A stretch of DNA of 64,000 bases from Escherichia phage Es2, in the sequence record OR515477.1; one strand, 5' to 3'. Each line of letters starts with the position of its first letter. The stretch's first letter is position 1. Shown here piece by piece: positions 1 to 61,633 of the stretch. The notes under the pieces are model-generated. The model did not search any database. It had not been told where the DNA came from and worked only from the letters and a program-made list of their open reading frames with translations. Made by a program: the position numbers and the translations under genes.

Positions 1-719
1 CCATCATAGTCCTTAGCAACCAGACCACGACGAGACAGCATAGATTTAACACCGCGCTCAGATTTACCAGTTTTCTCAGCGATCTCAGCAACAGTCATGT
101 TAACCAGATCCAGACCTTCTAACAGATCTTCACGAGTTTTAGCACTTGAAGTTTCCTGTACCGGCATAGCAGCGATACGACCTTCACGAAGCAGGCTCAG
201 AGCTTTACCACGGATCTGTTTGATATTACGACCGAAGTGAGCAGCGATAGCTTCAATAGTAGCACCAGCAACAACCTGATTAACAAAATCAGTTTCTTCA
301 TCCGGAGTGAAGGAACGAACAGCGGCAGCTTTTTCAGTTGGTTTAACAGAAGCGGTCATTTCCAGACTCAGGATCTTACCCTGTACCTGTTTAGCACCGA
401 ACTGACCACCAGCTACAGCAGCAGCGATCTCAGCATAGGTATACTGACCAGCATGAGCGTTCAGGAAATCAACCAGTTCAGCTTCCTGCTCAGGAGTCCA
501 CGGGGATTTCTGTACTTCGTTAGCTTTCTGTACTTCAAAACCTTCTTTACGCAGTTTAGAGCCAACGGAGCGAGCAGTAACATCTTTGCCAGTTTCAGCA
601 GCCAGTTCAGCAGCGATAGCAGCTACTTGTTCTTGAGAGATTACAGCAACACCCAGAGCAGTGGCTTTTGCTTTCAGAGACTCGGTTACACCTTCTACGT
701 TCCAGTTCAGTTTAGACAT
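1..719 (-). CDS. hypothetical protein, partial (C-terminus beyond window edge); three internal repeats, strong codon bias
   Basis: Minus frame open from ATG (plus-strand cat at 717-719) to position 1; translation MSKLNWNVEGVTESLKAKATALGVAV... with three similar segments (AEIAAAV / IEAIAAHFGRNIKQIRGKALSL / VAEIAEKTGKSERGVKSMLSRRGL); the + ORF 237-746 is its Ser-rich antisense. Confidence 0.55.
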   Translation of the reverse strand, partial: MSKLNWNVEGVTESLKAKATALGVAVISQEQVAAIAAELAAETGKDVTARSVGSKLRKEGFEVQKANEVQKSPWTPEQEAELVDFLNAHAGQYTYAEIAAAVAGGQFGAKQVQGKILSLEMTASVKPTEKAAAVRSFTPDEETDFVNQVVAGATIEAIAAHFGRNIKQIRGKALSLLREGRIAAMPVQETSSAKTREDLLEGLDLVNMTVAEIAEKTGKSERGVKSMLSRRGLVAKDYD

Positions 720-1494
720 TATTATTTTTCTCCAATAGTTCTTTAATCGACAGGATTTCTATCCCATTCGTTTCGGCTTTCTTATAAGATGAGGAAGAAC
801 GCTTTGATTCATCCTCACAGATTAGGTATTTGACGTCTTTAGTAACGGATTTCTTAACCGTATACCCTAGACTTTCTAAATAGTTTGTTGCATCCGTTCT
901 ATTTGCAAAATCTTGCAAAGATCCGGTAATACATACCGCGATTCCATTTGGTTGGGCTACTAGACCATCAGTGATGATAACCTCAGCTTTAGCACCCTTA
1001 ATACCATTTGAGAATTTCCACGGTAATTCAATAACATCCTTGCCTTGTGGGGAATTTAGCCAGGCTTTATAGTTTTCTCCAGCTTTGCCGTCAGCCTTCA
1101 CATCACGGAAGCTAGTGCAATTTTGGGATAATTTCTTTGCTGCAACCTCTCCAATTAGGGGGATTCCTAAAGAACCGAGAACTGAACCAAAGTCAATGTC
1201 TCCGCGAACTTTAGTATTTAATTCGCTAATTAACTTAGCGGCAACCTTGCTACCCACGGCTCTAACCAAATCTTCTTCGGTTAGGTAAAATAGTTCTGAA
1301 ATCTTCGTCAGCCCCAGCTTCTCAATAGTTTTTGGGCCAAAACCCTTTAACTTCATTTTTGAACAGAAGTTCTCAATTAACTTACTTGATTGCGCTGGAC
1401 AGTTGGACTTATTCCGACAGAATAATTGTCCGTTGACAAGATCTAGCTTAGAACCACAAGAGGGACATTGTGTTGGAATTTCGATTTTCATCAA
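712..1494 (-). CDS. lig: NAD-dependent DNA ligase, C-terminal module (Zn-finger, HhH, BRCT-like)
   Basis: CPSCGSKL..C..C zinc-finger-like N-terminus, GFGPKTIEKL helix-hairpin-helix, C-terminal BRCT-like region; adjacent to the adenylation module. Confidence 0.75.
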   Translation of the reverse strand: MMKIEIPTQCPSCGSKLDLVNGQLFCRNKSNCPAQSSKLIENFCSKMKLKGFGPKTIEKLGLTKISELFYLTEEDLVRAVGSKVAAKLISELNTKVRGDIDFGSVLGSLGIPLIGEVAAKKLSQNCTSFRDVKADGKAGENYKAWLNSPQGKDVIELPWKFSNGIKGAKAEVIITDGLVAQPNGIAVCITGSLQDFANRTDATNYLESLGYTVKKSVTKDVKYLICEDESKRSSSSYKKAETNGIEILSIKELLEKNNNV

Positions 1495-1521
1495 ATTTCT
1501 TCCTTATCAATTTATATAAAT

Positions 1522-1550
1522 ATTATAGCAAGTATTTAAGCATTTAGCAA
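1522..1550 (-). promoter_or_regulatory. early-type sigma70 promoter (minus strand)
   Basis: Reverse complement reads TTGCTA, 17 bp, TATAAT, then TTTATATAAATTGATAAGG. Confidence 0.6.
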
Positions 1551-1693
1551 CTACAATTTTAATTAACTTTGCTTACCCTCGCCATAACTTTCTATCCCTC
1601 AACTGAATGATAATAGTATATACCTAAGCGGCGAAAATGTCAATAACCACTTTATAATTCCGATATGGTAGATGGGTAGCAAAGGGTTATGTA

Positions 1694-2665
1694 TTAATCG
1701 TATACTCGCTCTACTATGCACGGTATTACACCACCAGCACGAATCACTCGAATCTGGCAACCGATCTCTAGATCAAGAGAGTTAATATAATCAACGTTAT
1801 TAAGAGTCGCTTTAACAATTGTAGCGTCATCAATAATTACCGGTTCGAAATATCCAACAGGAGTTACTTTACCAGAAGCCCCTACCTGCCACTCAACTTT
1901 GAGAAGAGTTGTAATTTCGCCTTCTTCATCTTGTTTAATTGCATAAGCACCGCGAGGATGTTTATTCGTCCAACCTTCTCGGAAGAATTTGTTGTTGTCA
2001 TTAATACGAACAACTTTACCGTCCGTAGGAATCCATTTAAAGAAGGAACGCACATTAACAACTGTTAAGAAGTTCTCATTCTCCAGCCAGAGCATATCTT
2101 TTAAATATGCTTCTGTAACACCTACAGATTCAGCAGAACACTGGATACCATATGCAACGAAGATTAAACCACCCTCCCCGATACGTTGTACGAAATCATC
2201 GCTATCTTTGAGGTTAATAGCACCAGAGGCAAAGTTACGTTTATTTTCTACTTCTTTTGTAATTAGAACTTCGCCAGTGATTTGAGTAGGTACTTTTTGA
2301 GAAATCTTTTTAGGAATGTTCAGCAATCTTACGTTGCTTGTGACATCATTTCCCAGAATACCATTACCACGAGTTAATGCTTGAACAAACTCACCGTTAA
2401 TATATAGCAGAGAAATTGCACAACCATCTAACTTATCAGTTTCTACCTGACCTAACGGGTTAAATGGGGGTTTATCTCCACGATTATAATAAACTTTCTG
2501 TAAAGAATACATACGATACAGATGTGGAATATCACCCTTAGGCCCGATCTCTTCTTCTAGTGGGAAGCGTTTTACTAAGCAATCATATTCTTCATCAGAG
2601 ATTAAAGACATGCCTTGATAGTATGCTTCTTGACAGCGTTTAATAAATTCTTTTACATTAGTCAT
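1694..2665 (-). CDS. lig: NAD-dependent DNA ligase, N-terminal adenylation/OB module
   Basis: KLDG adenylation motif (ETDKLDGCAISLLY), LigA-like domain order; promoter-like sequence in the 199 bp gap to the C-terminal module. Confidence 0.75.
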   Translation of the reverse strand: MTNVKEFIKRCQEAYYQGMSLISDEEYDCLVKRFPLEEEIGPKGDIPHLYRMYSLQKVYYNRGDKPPFNPLGQVETDKLDGCAISLLYINGEFVQALTRGNGILGNDVTSNVRLLNIPKKISQKVPTQITGEVLITKEVENKRNFASGAINLKDSDDFVQRIGEGGLIFVAYGIQCSAESVGVTEAYLKDMLWLENENFLTVVNVRSFFKWIPTDGKVVRINDNNKFFREGWTNKHPRGAYAIKQDEEGEITTLLKVEWQVGASGKVTPVGYFEPVIIDDATIVKATLNNVDYINSLDLEIGCQIRVIRAGGVIPCIVERVYD

Positions 2666-2752: not shown

Positions 2753-3061
2753 CTAGGCATTCTTGGCTTTGAGTTCTTCAGCTCGTTTCTGTACTTCATG
2801 TAAAACCTCAGATTCGCTAAGAATCTGTGTAAACGCATAGAAAAGCTGTGATGTTGTTTCTAGAGTGTAAGGAAAAGAGAAGCCAGATTTCGTTGGAAAC
2901 CATTCATCATTAATATCAAGAAGCCAGTAACGAATACCCATGTATAGATTCCCACGAAATTCAGATACTGTTAATCTTACTTGTTCCCCCTCCTTCTCCC
3001 AAAGTATGATGGACTGGTCATCAACGTGTCCTTCATAGTTTTGATTTACCTGTTCGCTCAT
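2753..3061 (-). CDS. hypothetical protein
   Basis: Six-frame ORF, 102 aa, preceded by early-type promoter on minus strand. Confidence 0.5.
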   Translation of the reverse strand: MSEQVNQNYEGHVDDQSIILWEKEGEQVRLTVSEFRGNLYMGIRYWLLDINDEWFPTKSGFSFPYTLETTSQLFYAFTQILSESEVLHEVQKRAEELKAKNA

Positions 3062-3444: not shown

Positions 3445-3855
3445 TTACTTAGTGATAGCTCGGATTGCTTCTGCCAGATGAGCAGCCGCTTTACCGGTCA
3501 GTTTGTCGATAATTGCATCATCCAGAAAATCTGGTGCTAGGCCAGCATCAGAGAATGCTGAACGAAGGTCGGCATGAGCTTGGGCTTTAGAAGTACGAGA
3601 GCCACCAGAAGCTTTTTCTCCAGTAGATGCGCTAGATTTAGAAGTAGAACCAGCAGCTTTCTTGATGTACAAACCTGCTTTAGTCAGCTTCATACGAAAA
3701 CCGTTCGGGGTTACACCATTTTCCTGGGCAATTTCGCTAACAATTTCCATGCTAACACCCGGACGTTCATCCTCTGGGAATTGCTCCATACGAGCAACAT
3801 ATTCGGAAGACATTTTTTCGAACAGTTCATCAGTCCACTGAGTTGGAGTAGTCAT
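3445..3855 (-). CDS. hypothetical protein
   Basis: Six-frame ORF, 136 aa, promoter upstream at 3913-3941. Confidence 0.5.
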   Translation of the reverse strand: MTTPTQWTDELFEKMSSEYVARMEQFPEDERPGVSMEIVSEIAQENGVTPNGFRMKLTKAGLYIKKAAGSTSKSSASTGEKASGGSRTSKAQAHADLRSAFSDAGLAPDFLDDAIIDKLTGKAAAHLAEAIRAITK

Positions 3856-3912
3856 ATTTTATATTTCCTTAATTAAGAATTAAACAGAATAGTTCTTTCA
3901 AACTATGAGAAT

Positions 3913-3941
3913 ATTATATCAAGAATTGTAGGATTAAGCAA
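3913..3941 (-). promoter_or_regulatory. early-type sigma70 promoter (minus strand)
   Basis: Reverse complement TTGCTT, 17 bp, TATAAT. Confidence 0.55.
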
Positions 3942-3961
3942 TTGAAATTTTTCGGTAATTG

Positions 3962-4222
3962 CTACACATCTAGCTCAACAATCCCCCAATCATCCGCTAG
4001 AGCTTCGTCTAGGGTTAATTCAACCTCTTCATCACTAGGCAGCAGCGTAGTATCTGGAGGCATCCACACGTATTGACGTACAGTATTGCTGTCTACGTCA
4101 AATTTCAATAGTACAGTATATTCTTTATTATTTTCCCAGCTATCCCGCTGGAGATATTTTACGTCTCCAGCTTTAAGTAAATCAGTTAGTTTACTCACGG
4201 CGTTTTCCTTTTTCTTTATCAA
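3962..4222 (-). CDS. hypothetical acidic protein
   Basis: Six-frame ORF, 86 aa. Confidence 0.45.
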   Translation of the reverse strand: MIKKKENAVSKLTDLLKAGDVKYLQRDSWENNKEYTVLLKFDVDSNTVRQYVWMPPDTTLLPSDEEVELTLDEALADDWGIVELDV

Positions 4223-4895: not shown

Positions 4896-4926
4896 ATTTA
4901 AACTCCTCTCTCAAATTTATGAATCT

Positions 4927-4955
4927 ATTATACAGAAATTTTTTGCACTATGCAA
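4927..4955 (-). promoter_or_regulatory. PN25-like strong early promoter (minus strand)
   Basis: Reverse complement AAAAATTTATTTGCAT...TTTCTGTATAATAGATTCATAAATTTGAGAGAGGAGTTT; the -10 and downstream segment match the classic T5 N25 promoter as recalled. Confidence 0.7.
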
Positions 4956-4963
4956 ATAAATTT

Positions 4964-5206
4964 TTACGATTCCTTGAGCAAAGAAGCAAGTTCAGCATAG
5001 ACTTTATCTAACTCAAAGCCTACGCGAAGAGACACGTTAGTTTTCCGTTGTTTAAGTAACCACTCGGATATGTTAGGGATGCCAGCTAGTCTATGCGGTA
5101 CCACCCTACATAGCTTTTCCGAAGTGTCGTAAACAGGAACTTTACGTTCTTTTACTGGAAACTTCCTTGTTTCCCATTTTTTATTCTTCACTGTCATTTC
5201 TAGCAC
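4964..5206 (-). CDS. hypothetical protein
   Basis: Six-frame ORF, 80 aa. Confidence 0.4.
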   Translation of the reverse strand: MLEMTVKNKKWETRKFPVKERKVPVYDTSEKLCRVVPHRLAGIPNISEWLLKQRKTNVSLRVGFELDKVYAELASLLKES

Positions 5207-61225: not shown

Positions 61226-61633
61226 ATGACTAACGCAAAAACCGCAAAATTCGCATGGAATGAAGAAAACACCCAAAAAGCTGTTACCATGTACCAGCAG
61301 TTAATCAACGAAAACGGTTTAGATTTCGCAAATAGTGACGGGCTGAAAGAGATTGCAAAAGCAGTAGGCGCGGCTTCTCCCGTATCCGTTCGCTCAAAAT
61401 TGACCAGTGCAAAAGCCTACCAGAAAAGCGATAAGCCGCGTAAAGTTGGCGGCGGCAGTTCTGTACGCAAAGCGCATTATGTGCGTGTTATTGCTAAACA
61501 TGCCATTGATTCCGGCATTATCAAAGACGCTGACGATCTGGCATCACTGGAAAGTGCAAAACTTGAAACGCTGGACGCGGTAGCGCAATTGCTAGGCGTT
61601 GCCGATGAAGTGAAACAAGCCGCAGGCGAATAA
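61226..61633 (+). CDS. hypothetical protein
   Basis: 135 aa ORF with AGGAG RBS. Confidence 0.5.
   Translation: MTNAKTAKFAWNEENTQKAVTMYQQLINENGLDFANSDGLKEIAKAVGAASPVSVRSKLTSAKAYQKSDKPRKVGGGSSVRKAHYVRVIAKHAIDSGIIKDADDLASLESAKLETLDAVAQLLGVADEVKQAAGE

What the first reader, a model, noticed from the sequence alone, without database searches (positions are those of the whole stretch)
1..719. Highly codon-biased gene with three internal repeats at the window edge
The minus-strand gene starting at 719 has strongly host-optimised codon usage (CTG, GCT, GGT, CGT) and three ~45-aa repeats with helix-turn-helix-like segments, suggesting an abundant DNA-binding protein. The supplied + ORF 237-746 is its antisense artefact.
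Basis: seen in the sequence. Interest (0 to 1): 0.4.

Follow-up and report, generated by a model that had tools for sequence, protein, structure and literature searches.

The report
Phage T5 D5 DNA-binding protein gene
This is the first 239 codons of gene D5 of a T5-like phage, a long-known, very abundant early DNA-binding protein, so the finding is correct but ordinary; the one refinement is that the protein is four, not three, tandem copies of a small helix-turn-helix module of the GcrA/Myb type.

Summary
Window 1-719 (minus strand) holds codons 1-239 of the 255-codon gene D5 of a Tequintavirus (T5-like phage). It differs from T5 D5 at 1 of 239 residues and lies directly after ligB, as in T5. 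The window edge removes the last 16 codons and the stop.

- **Coding strand:** the minus frame is open. 24 of 26 differences from T5 fall on its third codon positions.
- **Codon bias:** CAI is 0.73, against a mean of 0.27 for 82 other ORFs in the window (z = 5). In T5 itself D5 scores above the major head protein.
- **Repeats:** they are real but number four, with cores of about 44-60 aa spaced 61-68 aa apart. AlphaFold2 (pLDDT 94) gives four three-helix modules.
- **Closest solved structure:** the Caulobacter GcrA DNA-binding domain is the best match by both fold and sequence profile. D5 lacks GcrA's sigma-binding zinc finger.
- **Plus-strand ORF 237-746:** it is the codon-aligned antisense frame. 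It stays open because D5 almost never uses TTA, CTA or TCA.

Published work already describes D5 as a DNA-binding protein needed for replication and late transcription. It is also reported as very abundant in lysates and, recently, as the trigger of retron-Kva2. Verdict: already known, low interest.

The parts
1..719 (-). Gene D5, codons 1-239 (ATG at 719-717). The window edge cuts off the last 16 codons and the stop; the full length is 255 aa in T5, in BF23 and in the 99%-identical P0001.
   Evidence: Open frame. One amino-acid difference from T5 D5 over 239 residues. PHROG 323 at E 2.9e-66. T5 and BF23 annotation.
534..713 (-). Repeat R1 (residues 3-62): a three-helix HTM-type helix-turn-helix module with helices 11-22, 29-43 and 49-58. 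Conserved residues are W6, R50, K55 and R57. It carries an insertion between helices 1 and 3 relative to the other repeats.
   Evidence: AlphaFold2 secondary structure, invariant columns, profile comparisons, repeat alignment.
354..509 (-). Repeat R2 (residues 71-122), with helices 76-88, 95-101 and 109-118. Conserved residues are W74, Q113, G114, K115 and L117.
   Evidence: R2-R3 hhalign 95.9%, E 6e-9. Single-sequence z = 8.9. Model.
174..317 (-). Repeat R3 (residues 135-182), with helices 139-150, 155-162 and 166-178. Conserved residues are G171, K172 and L174.
   Evidence: Pfam HTH_23 at residues 151-184, below the curated cut-off.
12..143 (-). Repeat R4 (residues 193-236), with helices 210-217 and 221-231. 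Helix 1 is weak or short. Conserved residues are G223, L228, R230 and R231.
   Evidence: Pfam Sigma70_r4_2 at residues 204-230, 29 bits against a cut-off of 25.7. hhalign to R1 and R3 at 51-66%. Model.
730..733 (-). GGAG Shine-Dalgarno-like motif 10 nt upstream of the D5 ATG, lying inside the 3' end of ligB.
   Evidence: Read directly from the sequence. Its function is inferred.
712..1494 (-). ligB (NAD-dependent DNA ligase subunit B), the upstream gene. Its last 8 nt overlap the D5 start (712-719), which suggests co-transcription and translational coupling.
   Evidence: ORF list. PHROG 3498 at E 6.9e-136 and Pfam BRCT. Same arrangement in T5 and BF23.
1522..1643 (-). Two sigma-70-type promoter-like sites: TTGCTA-17-TATAAT at 1550-1522 and TTGACA-17-TATACT at 1643-1615. 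They correspond to T5 early promoters P-K28a and P-K28b, the nearest annotated promoters upstream of ligB-D5.
   Evidence: Consensus scan. Positions transferred from the AY543070 annotation. Activity was not tested here.
237..746 (+). Non-coding antisense ORF (169 aa). It is the codon-aligned reverse frame of D5 and is an artefact.
   Evidence: No family hits. Its first codon position coincides with the D5 third position. Only two D5 codons, TCA at 147-149 and TTA at 120-122, can give antisense stops. The longest stop-free antisense stretch in Vibrio phage Dax is only 70 aa.

Best explanation
The region is the 5' 94% of gene D5 of a T5-like phage (Tequintavirus).

D5 is an early, non-structural, very highly expressed protein of 27 kDa. 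It is built from four tandem, mutually homologous three-helix helix-turn-helix modules joined by linkers of 8-12 residues, and it ends in a short Ala/Lys-rich helix.

The proposed mechanism has four steps.
1. The gene is transcribed with ligB from the strong early promoters P-K28a and P-K28b.
2. It is translated very efficiently because nearly every codon is a major E. coli codon. It therefore accumulates to levels comparable with virion proteins.
3. Each module places its positively charged third helix (motif R/K-x-V-x-G-K-L-x-S/R-L-G) in a DNA major groove, as the GcrA DNA-binding domain does. One monomer would thus grip several successive grooves of duplex DNA, with little or no sequence specificity.
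4. Coating of phage DNA then shapes what the replication and transcription machinery can do. This matches the classical phenotype of D5 mutants: replication fails, late transcription is lost and early genes are not shut off.

Shown here: identity, coding strand, codon bias, the four-repeat architecture, and the HTH fold with GcrA as the closest solved relative. Taken from the literature: DNA binding, the genetic phenotype, abundance and the monomeric state. Inferred: groove-by-groove binding by all four modules, lack of sequence specificity, and coating as the cause of the transcription switch.
For: **Identity and context**
- The region is 96.6-97.1% identical in DNA to the listed T5-like phages; the T5 and BB1 records annotate a 'D5 protein' there and Bf23 a 'transcription factor D5'.
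- The D5 gene lies between ligB and the D6 helicase in T5, BF23, Klebsiella phage SEL21 and Vibrio phage Dax.
- PHROG 323 matches at E 2.9e-66.

**Coding strand**
- 24 of 26 differences from T5 are at third codon positions of the minus frame.

**Expression level**
- CAI is 0.734, z = 5 within the window.
- In T5, D5 (0.695) exceeds the major head protein (0.630) and all 31 other genes scored.
- The bias is conserved on other hosts: Nc is 31.2 in SEL21 and 30.1 in Dax, against 37-58 for their neighbours.
- D5 is 'very abundant in lysates' and absent from virions (PMC10644984).

**Architecture**
- The AlphaFold2 model has pLDDT 94 and shows four three-helix bundles.
- The repeats are related to each other.
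- 117 of 120 homologues have exactly four repeats.

**DNA-binding fold**
- The repeat profile finds the GcrA domain as the best natural PDB sequence, E 1.1e-3 over the whole domain. hhalign gives 96.4%.
- R4 passes Pfam's Sigma70_r4_2 threshold.
- The third helices carry net charges of +3, +1, +4 and +4.
- The invariant residues R50, K55 and R57, K115, K172, and R230 and R231 sit on helix 3. They occupy positions equivalent to the GcrA DNA-contacting residues N34, K39, H41 and R42.

**Function from the literature**
- GenBank note and the title of McCorquodale et al. 1979.
- D5 binds retron-Kva2 msDNA, is a 26-kDa monomer and is toxic on its own. Escape changes G53D and G232D fall on or just after the third helices of R1 and R4 (bioRxiv 10.64898/2026.07.11.737809).
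Against: - No DNA-binding experiment was run here, and the 1979-83 biochemical papers are not in the held library. Cooperative, non-specific duplex binding therefore rests on my memory of that literature and on the GenBank note.
- The whole protein is about neutral (pI 6.8, net charge 0), which is unusual for a pure DNA-coating protein. R2's third helix is only +1.
- The model's pTM of 0.56 means the relative arrangement of the four modules is not predicted.
- The GcrA relationship is marginal in database-corrected sequence statistics (E about 1e-3), and Pfam's GcrA model is not hit.
- The gene's 3' end and stop codon are outside the window.
Confidence: 0.85

Rival explanations
1. D5 is a sequence-specific late-transcription activator that works like GcrA. 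One or more of its GcrA-type modules would read a motif in T5 late promoters while another part of D5 contacts the sigma-70 RNA polymerase holoenzyme, so that D5 switches the polymerase directly from early to late promoters.
For: - GcrA is the closest solved relative of the repeats. GcrA activates sigma-70 promoters as a monomer bound near the start site (PMC5887438; PMC9976885).
- D5 is required for late transcription.
- T5 late genes are transcribed by the host sigma-70 holoenzyme, and the switch mechanism is 'unknown' (PMC7472727).
- Database records call D5 a 'transcription factor'.
Against: - D5 has no cysteine, so it cannot contain GcrA's CCCH zinc-finger sigma-interaction domain. No other RNA-polymerase-binding domain was detected.
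- Expression on the scale of the capsid protein suggests a stoichiometric DNA coat rather than a promoter-specific factor.
- GcrA's base-reading residues (R33, N34, I37, H41, R42) are not conserved as a set in any repeat.
- D5 also affects replication.
Confidence: 0.2
2. D5 acts mainly as a protective 'phage chromatin'. By coating replicating T5 DNA it would shield the DNA from host or phage nucleases and methyltransferases, and its transcription and replication phenotypes would be secondary.
For: - D5 is extremely abundant and has a multivalent dsDNA-binding design.
- T5 and BF23 DNA evades restriction and methylation in vivo by unknown means, and a protective DNA-binding protein has been proposed (PMC10644984).
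- At least one defence system, retron-Kva2, has evolved to sense D5.
Against: - The restriction-evasion determinant is inferred to be expressed from the first-step-transfer region, before D5 (an early gene on second-step DNA) can be made.
- The same paper reports that avoidance of methylation could not be tied to the proposed DNA-protecting protein, because the restriction-sensitive relative Bas26 is also unmethylated.
- There is no direct evidence for this role.
Confidence: 0.1
3. The plus-strand ORF 237-746 is the real gene, or a second overlapping gene.
For: It is a 169-codon ORF with a GTG start, and long antisense open frames also exist in T5, BF23 and SEL21.
Against: - It has no Pfam or PHROG hit.
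- Substitutions fall on its first codon position, not its third.
- Its CAI is 0.32.
- Its openness is fully explained by D5 using TTA, CTA and TCA only twice.
- It is not conserved in Vibrio phage Dax, where the longest open antisense stretch is 70 aa.
- Its predicted protein is Ser/Phe-rich and of low complexity.
Confidence: 0.01

Closest known systems
Bacteriophage T5 D5 protein (T5.118, AAS77164; also BF23 ORF135, 'transcription factor D5')
   Same: It is the orthologue. There is one amino-acid difference from T5 D5 over the 239 residues in the window (A25 here, D25 in T5). It has the same position after ligB, the same 8-nt overlap with ligB, the same upstream P-K28a/b promoters and the same codon bias.
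   Different: Nothing of substance differs. The window copy is cut after codon 239, and about 3% of bases differ, almost all synonymously.
[quoted passage not shown]
   Different: GcrA has one such domain plus a linker and a CCCH zinc-finger domain that binds sigma-70 region 2. D5 has four domains in tandem, no cysteine and no such domain. The Pfam GcrA model is not matched. GcrA's base-contacting residues are not conserved as a set.
Tandem Myb/SANT repeat DNA-binding domains (c-Myb R1-R3, SNAPC4, plant R2R3-MYB)
   Different: All Myb hits are below Pfam's threshold (at most 17.9 bits against 24.4). D5 repeats lack the three regularly spaced tryptophans. Myb proteins are sequence-specific eukaryotic factors.
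T5 pre-early proteins A2 (N-terminus, this window 61226-61633) and A1 (N-terminal 60 residues)
   Same: A2 residues 8-62 match the D5 repeat profile (hmmsearch E 1e-4 within the window, hhalign 95.3%). The A1 N-terminus was reported to resemble the GcrA DNA-binding domain (bioRxiv 10.1101/2022.08.27.505566). All three are T5 DNA-binding proteins.
   Different: A1 and A2 carry a single module fused to other domains, are pre-early genes and act in second-step DNA transfer and host shut-off. A1 was not examined here.
Sigma-70 region 4 (Pfam PF08281)
   Same: Repeat R4 scores above Pfam's gathering threshold (29.0 against 25.7 bits), and 12 of 42 repeats match. This reflects a shared helix-turn-helix.
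   Different: D5 has no sigma region 2 and no significant region 3. The NCBIfam sigma-70 model scores 13.6 against 42.9 bits. D5 is not a sigma factor.

Membership tests
D5 protein family of T5-like phages (PHROG 323; Demerecviridae) | Full-length sequence homology to T5 D5 | tested here: met
   238 of 239 residues are identical to T5 D5. PHROG 323 matches at E 2.9e-66 over residues 1-239. 808 homologues were found, the best at 99% identity and 255 aa.
D5 protein family of T5-like phages (PHROG 323; Demerecviridae) | Conserved position in the early replication cluster, between ligB and the D6 replicative helicase | tested here: inconclusive
   The ligB side is met: ligB lies at 712-1494 and overlaps D5 by 8 nt, as in T5, BF23, SEL21 and Dax. 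The D6 side lies outside the window.
D5 protein family of T5-like phages (PHROG 323; Demerecviridae) | Four tandem HTH repeats | tested here: met
   The repeat HMM finds four domains in the window protein and in 117 of 120 homologues. The AlphaFold2 model shows four three-helix modules.
D5 protein family of T5-like phages (PHROG 323; Demerecviridae) | Binding to double-stranded DNA; requirement for replication and late transcription | not testable with these tools
   Known only from the literature and the GenBank note. msDNA binding is reported in a 2026 preprint.
GcrA cell-cycle regulator family (Pfam PF07750) | N-terminal GcrA-type three-helix DNA-binding domain | tested here: met
GcrA cell-cycle regulator family (Pfam PF07750) | C-terminal sigma-70-interacting CCCH zinc-finger domain (C-X14-C-X9-C-X2-H) | tested here: not met
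   The feature is defined in PMC5887438. D5 contains no cysteine.
GcrA cell-cycle regulator family (Pfam PF07750) | Match to the Pfam GcrA model | tested here: not met
   No PF07750 hit at E up to 1 for the whole protein, and none among the 25 families listed for the 42 single repeats.
Myb/SANT DNA-binding domain (Pfam PF00249) | Match above Pfam's gathering score; three regularly spaced aromatic residues | tested here: not met
Sigma-70 family sigma factors | Region 2 (binding of the -10 element and core polymerase) together with region 4 | tested here: not met
   Only a region-4-like HTH is present in R4 (PF08281, 29 bits). There is no region 2. The NCBIfam sigma70-ECF model scores 13.6 against 42.9 bits.

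The most novel reading that the evidence does not exclude
D5 may be the four-fold tandem form of a GcrA-type HTH module that T5-like phages reuse in their key DNA-handling proteins: once in A2, as seen here, once in A1, as reported elsewhere, and four times in D5.

As the most host-codon-optimised protein of the phage, D5 would then act as a phage 'chromatin' protein. Its stoichiometric coating of duplex phage DNA would itself be the early-to-late transcription switch, and might also shield phage DNA from host enzymes.

That would give a concrete, testable mechanism for the still-unexplained temporal switch of T5 transcription by the unmodified sigma-70 holoenzyme.
Probability: 0.15. Interest if true: 0.5.

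Novelty: already known. Interest (0 to 1): 0.15.

Why it matters
It matters little as a discovery. D5 has been a named and genetically and biochemically studied T5 gene since the 1970s, and the window copy is essentially identical to it.

The analysis is useful in three ways.
- It confirms that a reader can correctly infer 'abundant DNA-binding protein' from codon usage and repeats alone.
- It shows why highly biased genes throw up long antisense ORFs that gene callers may list.
- It refines the description of D5. Papers and database records speak of 'a helix-turn-helix' or a 'transcription factor'. The protein is in fact four homologous GcrA/Myb-like modules, a module also present in the pre-early protein A2.

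This architecture is relevant to current work. D5 was recently reported as the trigger of the retron-Kva2 defence system through its HTH fold, and the mechanism of the T5 early-to-late switch remains open.

Tried and rejected
- **Plus-strand ORF 237-746 as a gene:** rejected. It has no homology, the substitution phase is wrong, and its openness is explained by D5's avoidance of TTA, CTA and TCA.
- **D5 as a sigma factor:** rejected. Only a region-4-like HTH is present.
- **D5 as a GcrA orthologue:** rejected. It has no CCCH zinc-finger domain, no cysteine and no Pfam GcrA hit.
- **Whole-protein sequence search of the PDB:** nothing significant (best E 0.56, a Myb protein). Only the repeat profile reached GcrA.
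- **The 'phage-encoded DNA binding protein' that triggers DRT4 in T5:** I checked whether this was D5. It is ORF55.
- **Original D5 papers:** PMC353123 is not held, and searches for the 1979-83 biochemistry found only citations. Statements on cooperative duplex binding are therefore marked as memory or annotation.
- **Foldseek against afdb50:** the library was unavailable.
- **BFVD search:** it returned D5 homologues and loosely similar multi-HTH phage proteins at low TM-score, and added nothing.
- **NCBIfam:** no meaningful family for D5, A2 or D3.

Full report
**What is there**

Translating the minus strand from the ATG at 719 gives an uninterrupted frame of 239 codons that runs off the window at position 1. 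The first 3.2 kb of the window is 96.6-97.1% identical in DNA to the listed T5-like phages of Escherichia and Salmonella.

In the T5 record AY543070 the matching gene is D5 (T5.118, 768 nt, 255 aa). Its annotation reads 'DNA-binding protein; required for DNA replication and late transcription; also is involved in shutoff of expression of ...'. BF23 calls it 'transcription factor D5'.

The window protein differs from T5 D5 at one residue of 239. It matches PHROG 323, 'transcriptional regulator, D5-like', at E 2.9e-66. The window therefore lacks only the last 16 codons and the stop.

The neighbours are those of T5:
- ligB at 712-1494, overlapping the D5 start by 8 nt;
- ligA at 1694-2665;
- a PC4-like protein at 2753-3061;
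- D3 at 3445-3855.

Two sigma-70-type sites on the minus strand coincide with T5's annotated early promoters P-K28a and P-K28b upstream of ligB. They are at 1550-1522 and 1643-1615. No promoter-like site lies between ligB and D5, and a GGAG lies 10 nt before the D5 ATG. Co-transcription with ligB and translational coupling are inferred from this.

**Coding strand**

- Of 26 base differences from T5 within the gene, 24 are at third positions of the minus frame. That makes 25 synonymous codon changes against 1 non-synonymous. BF23 gives 11 against 1.
- The plus ORF 237-746 has no Pfam or PHROG match.
- It is the exactly codon-aligned antisense frame, so stops can arise in it only opposite the sense codons TTA, CTA or TCA.
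- D5 uses these codons only twice: TCA at 147-149 and TTA at 120-122. This is why the antisense frame stays open from there to beyond the D5 start.
- In Vibrio phage Dax the longest antisense open stretch is only 70 aa.

**Codon bias**

| Amino acid | Preferred codon | Share in D5 |
|---|---|---|
| Leu | CTG | 16 of 18 |
| Ala | GCT | 34 of 37 |
| Gly | GGT | 16 of 18 |
| Arg | CGT | 9 of 11 |
| Ile | ATC | 9 of 10 |

- CAI with E. coli weights is 0.734. For 82 other long ORFs of the window the mean is 0.269, sd 0.092 and maximum 0.554, giving z = 5.0.
- The weight-free effective number of codons agrees. In T5, Nc is 31.2 for D5 against 41-58 for the eight neighbouring genes.
- The bias is a conserved property of the gene. 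Nc is 31.2 in Klebsiella phage SEL21 and 30.1 in Vibrio phage Dax, against 37-58 for their neighbours.
- Across the right half of the T5 genome, D5 (0.695) ranks above the major head protein (0.630) and all 31 other genes scored.
- Published proteomics matches this. [quoted passage not shown] It also appeared among the strongest signals in a Yersinia T5-like phage preparation (PMC8624392).

**Repeats**

A 57-sequence family alignment (A1) shows a motif recurring four times:
- RSVGSKLRKxG (R1);
- KQVQGKILSLE (R2);
- xIRGKALSLxREG (R3);
- RGVKSMLSRRG (R4).

Profile-profile comparison of the four segments gave these results. Reversed-sequence controls scored E 0.1-0.4.

| Pair | Probability | E-value |
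|---|---|---|
| R2-R3 | 95.9% | 6e-9 |
| R3-R4 | 65.8% | 5.7e-5 |
| R1-R2 | 64.8% | 6.2e-5 |
| R1-R4 | 51.4% | 1.5e-4 |
| R1-R3 | 38.1% | 3.3e-4 |
| R2-R4 | 10.5% | 3e-3 |

On the window protein alone, only three pairs stand out from 2000 shuffles: R2-R3 (z 8.9), R2-R4 (z 3.6) and R1-R4 (z 3.5). A joint alignment of all four repeats from 14 homologues lines up cleanly.

There are therefore four repeats:
- R1, residues 3-62, which carries an insertion;
- R2, residues 71-122;
- R3, residues 135-182;
- R4, residues 193-236.

They are spaced 61-68 residues apart, rather than being three repeats of about 45 aa. Of 120 homologues, 117 have four repeats. Two are fragments, and one 316-aa protein has five.

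**Fold**

AlphaFold2 on A1 (first sequence the full-length, 99%-identical P0001) gives mean pLDDT 94. It shows four three-helix bundles plus a C-terminal helix at 240-254. The pTM is 0.56, so the relative orientation of the modules is undetermined.

- Next come the Tn3 resolvase HTH, SNAPC4 Myb repeats, the Timeless DNA-binding repeat, LUX and c-Myb R1/R2, among others.
- Independently, an HMM built from 42 repeat sequences (A2) finds GcrA as the best natural protein in the PDB. E is 1.1e-3, aligned over the whole domain. The only better hit is a designed coiled coil matched on low-complexity 'EIA' segments.
- hhalign of that profile against the GcrA domain gives 96.4%. That target was chosen after the search, so the database-corrected E of about 1e-3 is the fair figure.

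Pfam sees only generic HTH families. Sigma70_r4_2 on R4 is above threshold. HTH_23 on R3, Myb on R2 and HTH_33 on R1 are below threshold.

In GcrA, helices 2 and 3 bind the major groove. Contacts come from R33, N34, I37, G38, K39, H41 and R42 (PMC5887438). In the alignment these positions correspond to the conserved basic positions of the D5 third helices: R50, K55 and R57; K115; K172; R230 and R231. Those helices carry net charges of +3, +1, +4 and +4, while the whole protein is neutral (pI 6.8).

**What D5 is not**

- It has no cysteine, so it cannot have GcrA's CCCH sigma-70-interaction domain.
- It has no sigma region 2.

It shares a DNA-binding module with GcrA, Myb proteins and sigma region 4. 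It is not a member of any of those families.

**Mechanism**

The best-supported reading is as follows. D5 is made early and in very large amounts. Each monomer (26 kDa by mass photometry) carries four major-groove-binding modules on flexible linkers. By binding duplex phage DNA multivalently, it conditions replication and the early-to-late transcription switch.

- DNA binding and the genetic phenotype come from the annotation and the title of McCorquodale et al. 1979.
- Cooperative, sequence-independent duplex binding is my recollection of the 1979-83 biochemistry, which I could not read here.
- The groove-by-groove picture is inference from the GcrA structure.

The main rival is a GcrA-like, promoter-specific activator that contacts sigma-70 RNA polymerase. 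It is attractive because the T5 temporal switch is still unexplained (PMC7472727). It lacks a detectable polymerase-binding domain, and it fits poorly with expression on the scale of the capsid protein. A protective 'chromatin' role is possible but unsupported.

**Recent literature**

A July 2026 preprint identifies T5 D5 as the natural trigger of retron-Kva2. D5 binds the msDNA stem-loop through 'a helix-turn-helix motif' and is toxic on its own. An escape phage carried G53D, W74*, V149I and G232D in D5.

In my alignment:
- G53 lies on the third helix of R1, at the position equivalent to the base-contacting I37 of GcrA;
- G232 is the conserved glycine that ends the third helix of R4, equivalent to GcrA G44;
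- W74 is the first conserved residue of R2.

Placing acidic residues at two recognition helices would be expected to weaken DNA binding. This is inference.

**Verdict**

The object is the well-known gene D5 of a T5-like phage. Novelty is 'already known', and interest is low at 0.15.

There are two modest additions:
- the explicit four-fold architecture of GcrA/Myb-type modules;
- the finding that the pre-early protein A2 carries one copy of the same module.

Noticed in passing
window 61226-61633 (+): This is the T5 pre-early gene A2 (135 aa, a DNA-binding protein needed with A1 for second-step DNA transfer). Residues 8-62 match the D5 repeat profile (hmmsearch E 1e-4 among 582 window ORFs, hhalign 95.3%). 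A2 has no Pfam or NCBIfam hit. A2 therefore seems to carry one copy of the same GcrA-type HTH module. A published preprint reports the same fold for the A1 N-terminus.
   Followed up: partly
window 3445-3855 (-): Gene D3 (136 aa) has the second-highest E. coli CAI in the window (0.554; 0.560 in T5). In T5, D11 is also high (0.554). D3 has no informative Pfam or NCBIfam hit. The retron-Kva2 preprint lists D3 as a DNA-binding gene mutated in an escape phage. D3 may be another abundant early protein of unknown function.
   Followed up: partly
window 712-2665 (-): The NAD-dependent DNA ligase is split into two genes. ligA (1694-2665) carries the adenylation and OB domains. ligB (712-1494) carries the Zn-finger, HhH and BRCT domains. 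A 200-nt gap between them holds the two P-K28 promoters. In Vibrio phage Dax three extra small genes sit between the two halves.
   Followed up: no
window about 1496-1663, 3887-3961 and 4912-4986 (-): By coordinate transfer from AY543070, these are the classic strong T5 early promoters P-K28a/b, P-N26 and P-N25. From memory, P-N25 is the 'T5 promoter' of commercial expression vectors. Only the P-K28 pair was checked with the consensus scan.
   Followed up: partly
whole window against AY543070: Window position 1 maps to about T5 68028, but A2 at window 61226-61633 maps to T5 3727-4134. The window phage is therefore about 2.7 kb shorter than T5 over this span, presumably through differences in the deletable early region and homing-endonuclease genes. 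The gaps were not located.
   Followed up: no
protein P0065 (a hit, not in the window): One metagenomic D5 homologue of 316 aa has five repeat modules instead of four, so the repeat number is not absolutely fixed in the family.
   Followed up: no
hits P0020 and P0039 and H27: D5 fragments 100% identical to the window protein are deposited as 'Enterococcus faecalis' proteins. A 4.8-kb record with 98.5% DNA identity is named 'Listeria phage LM 4-11-1'. These are most likely contamination or mislabelling of T5-like phage DNA in those data sets.
   Followed up: no
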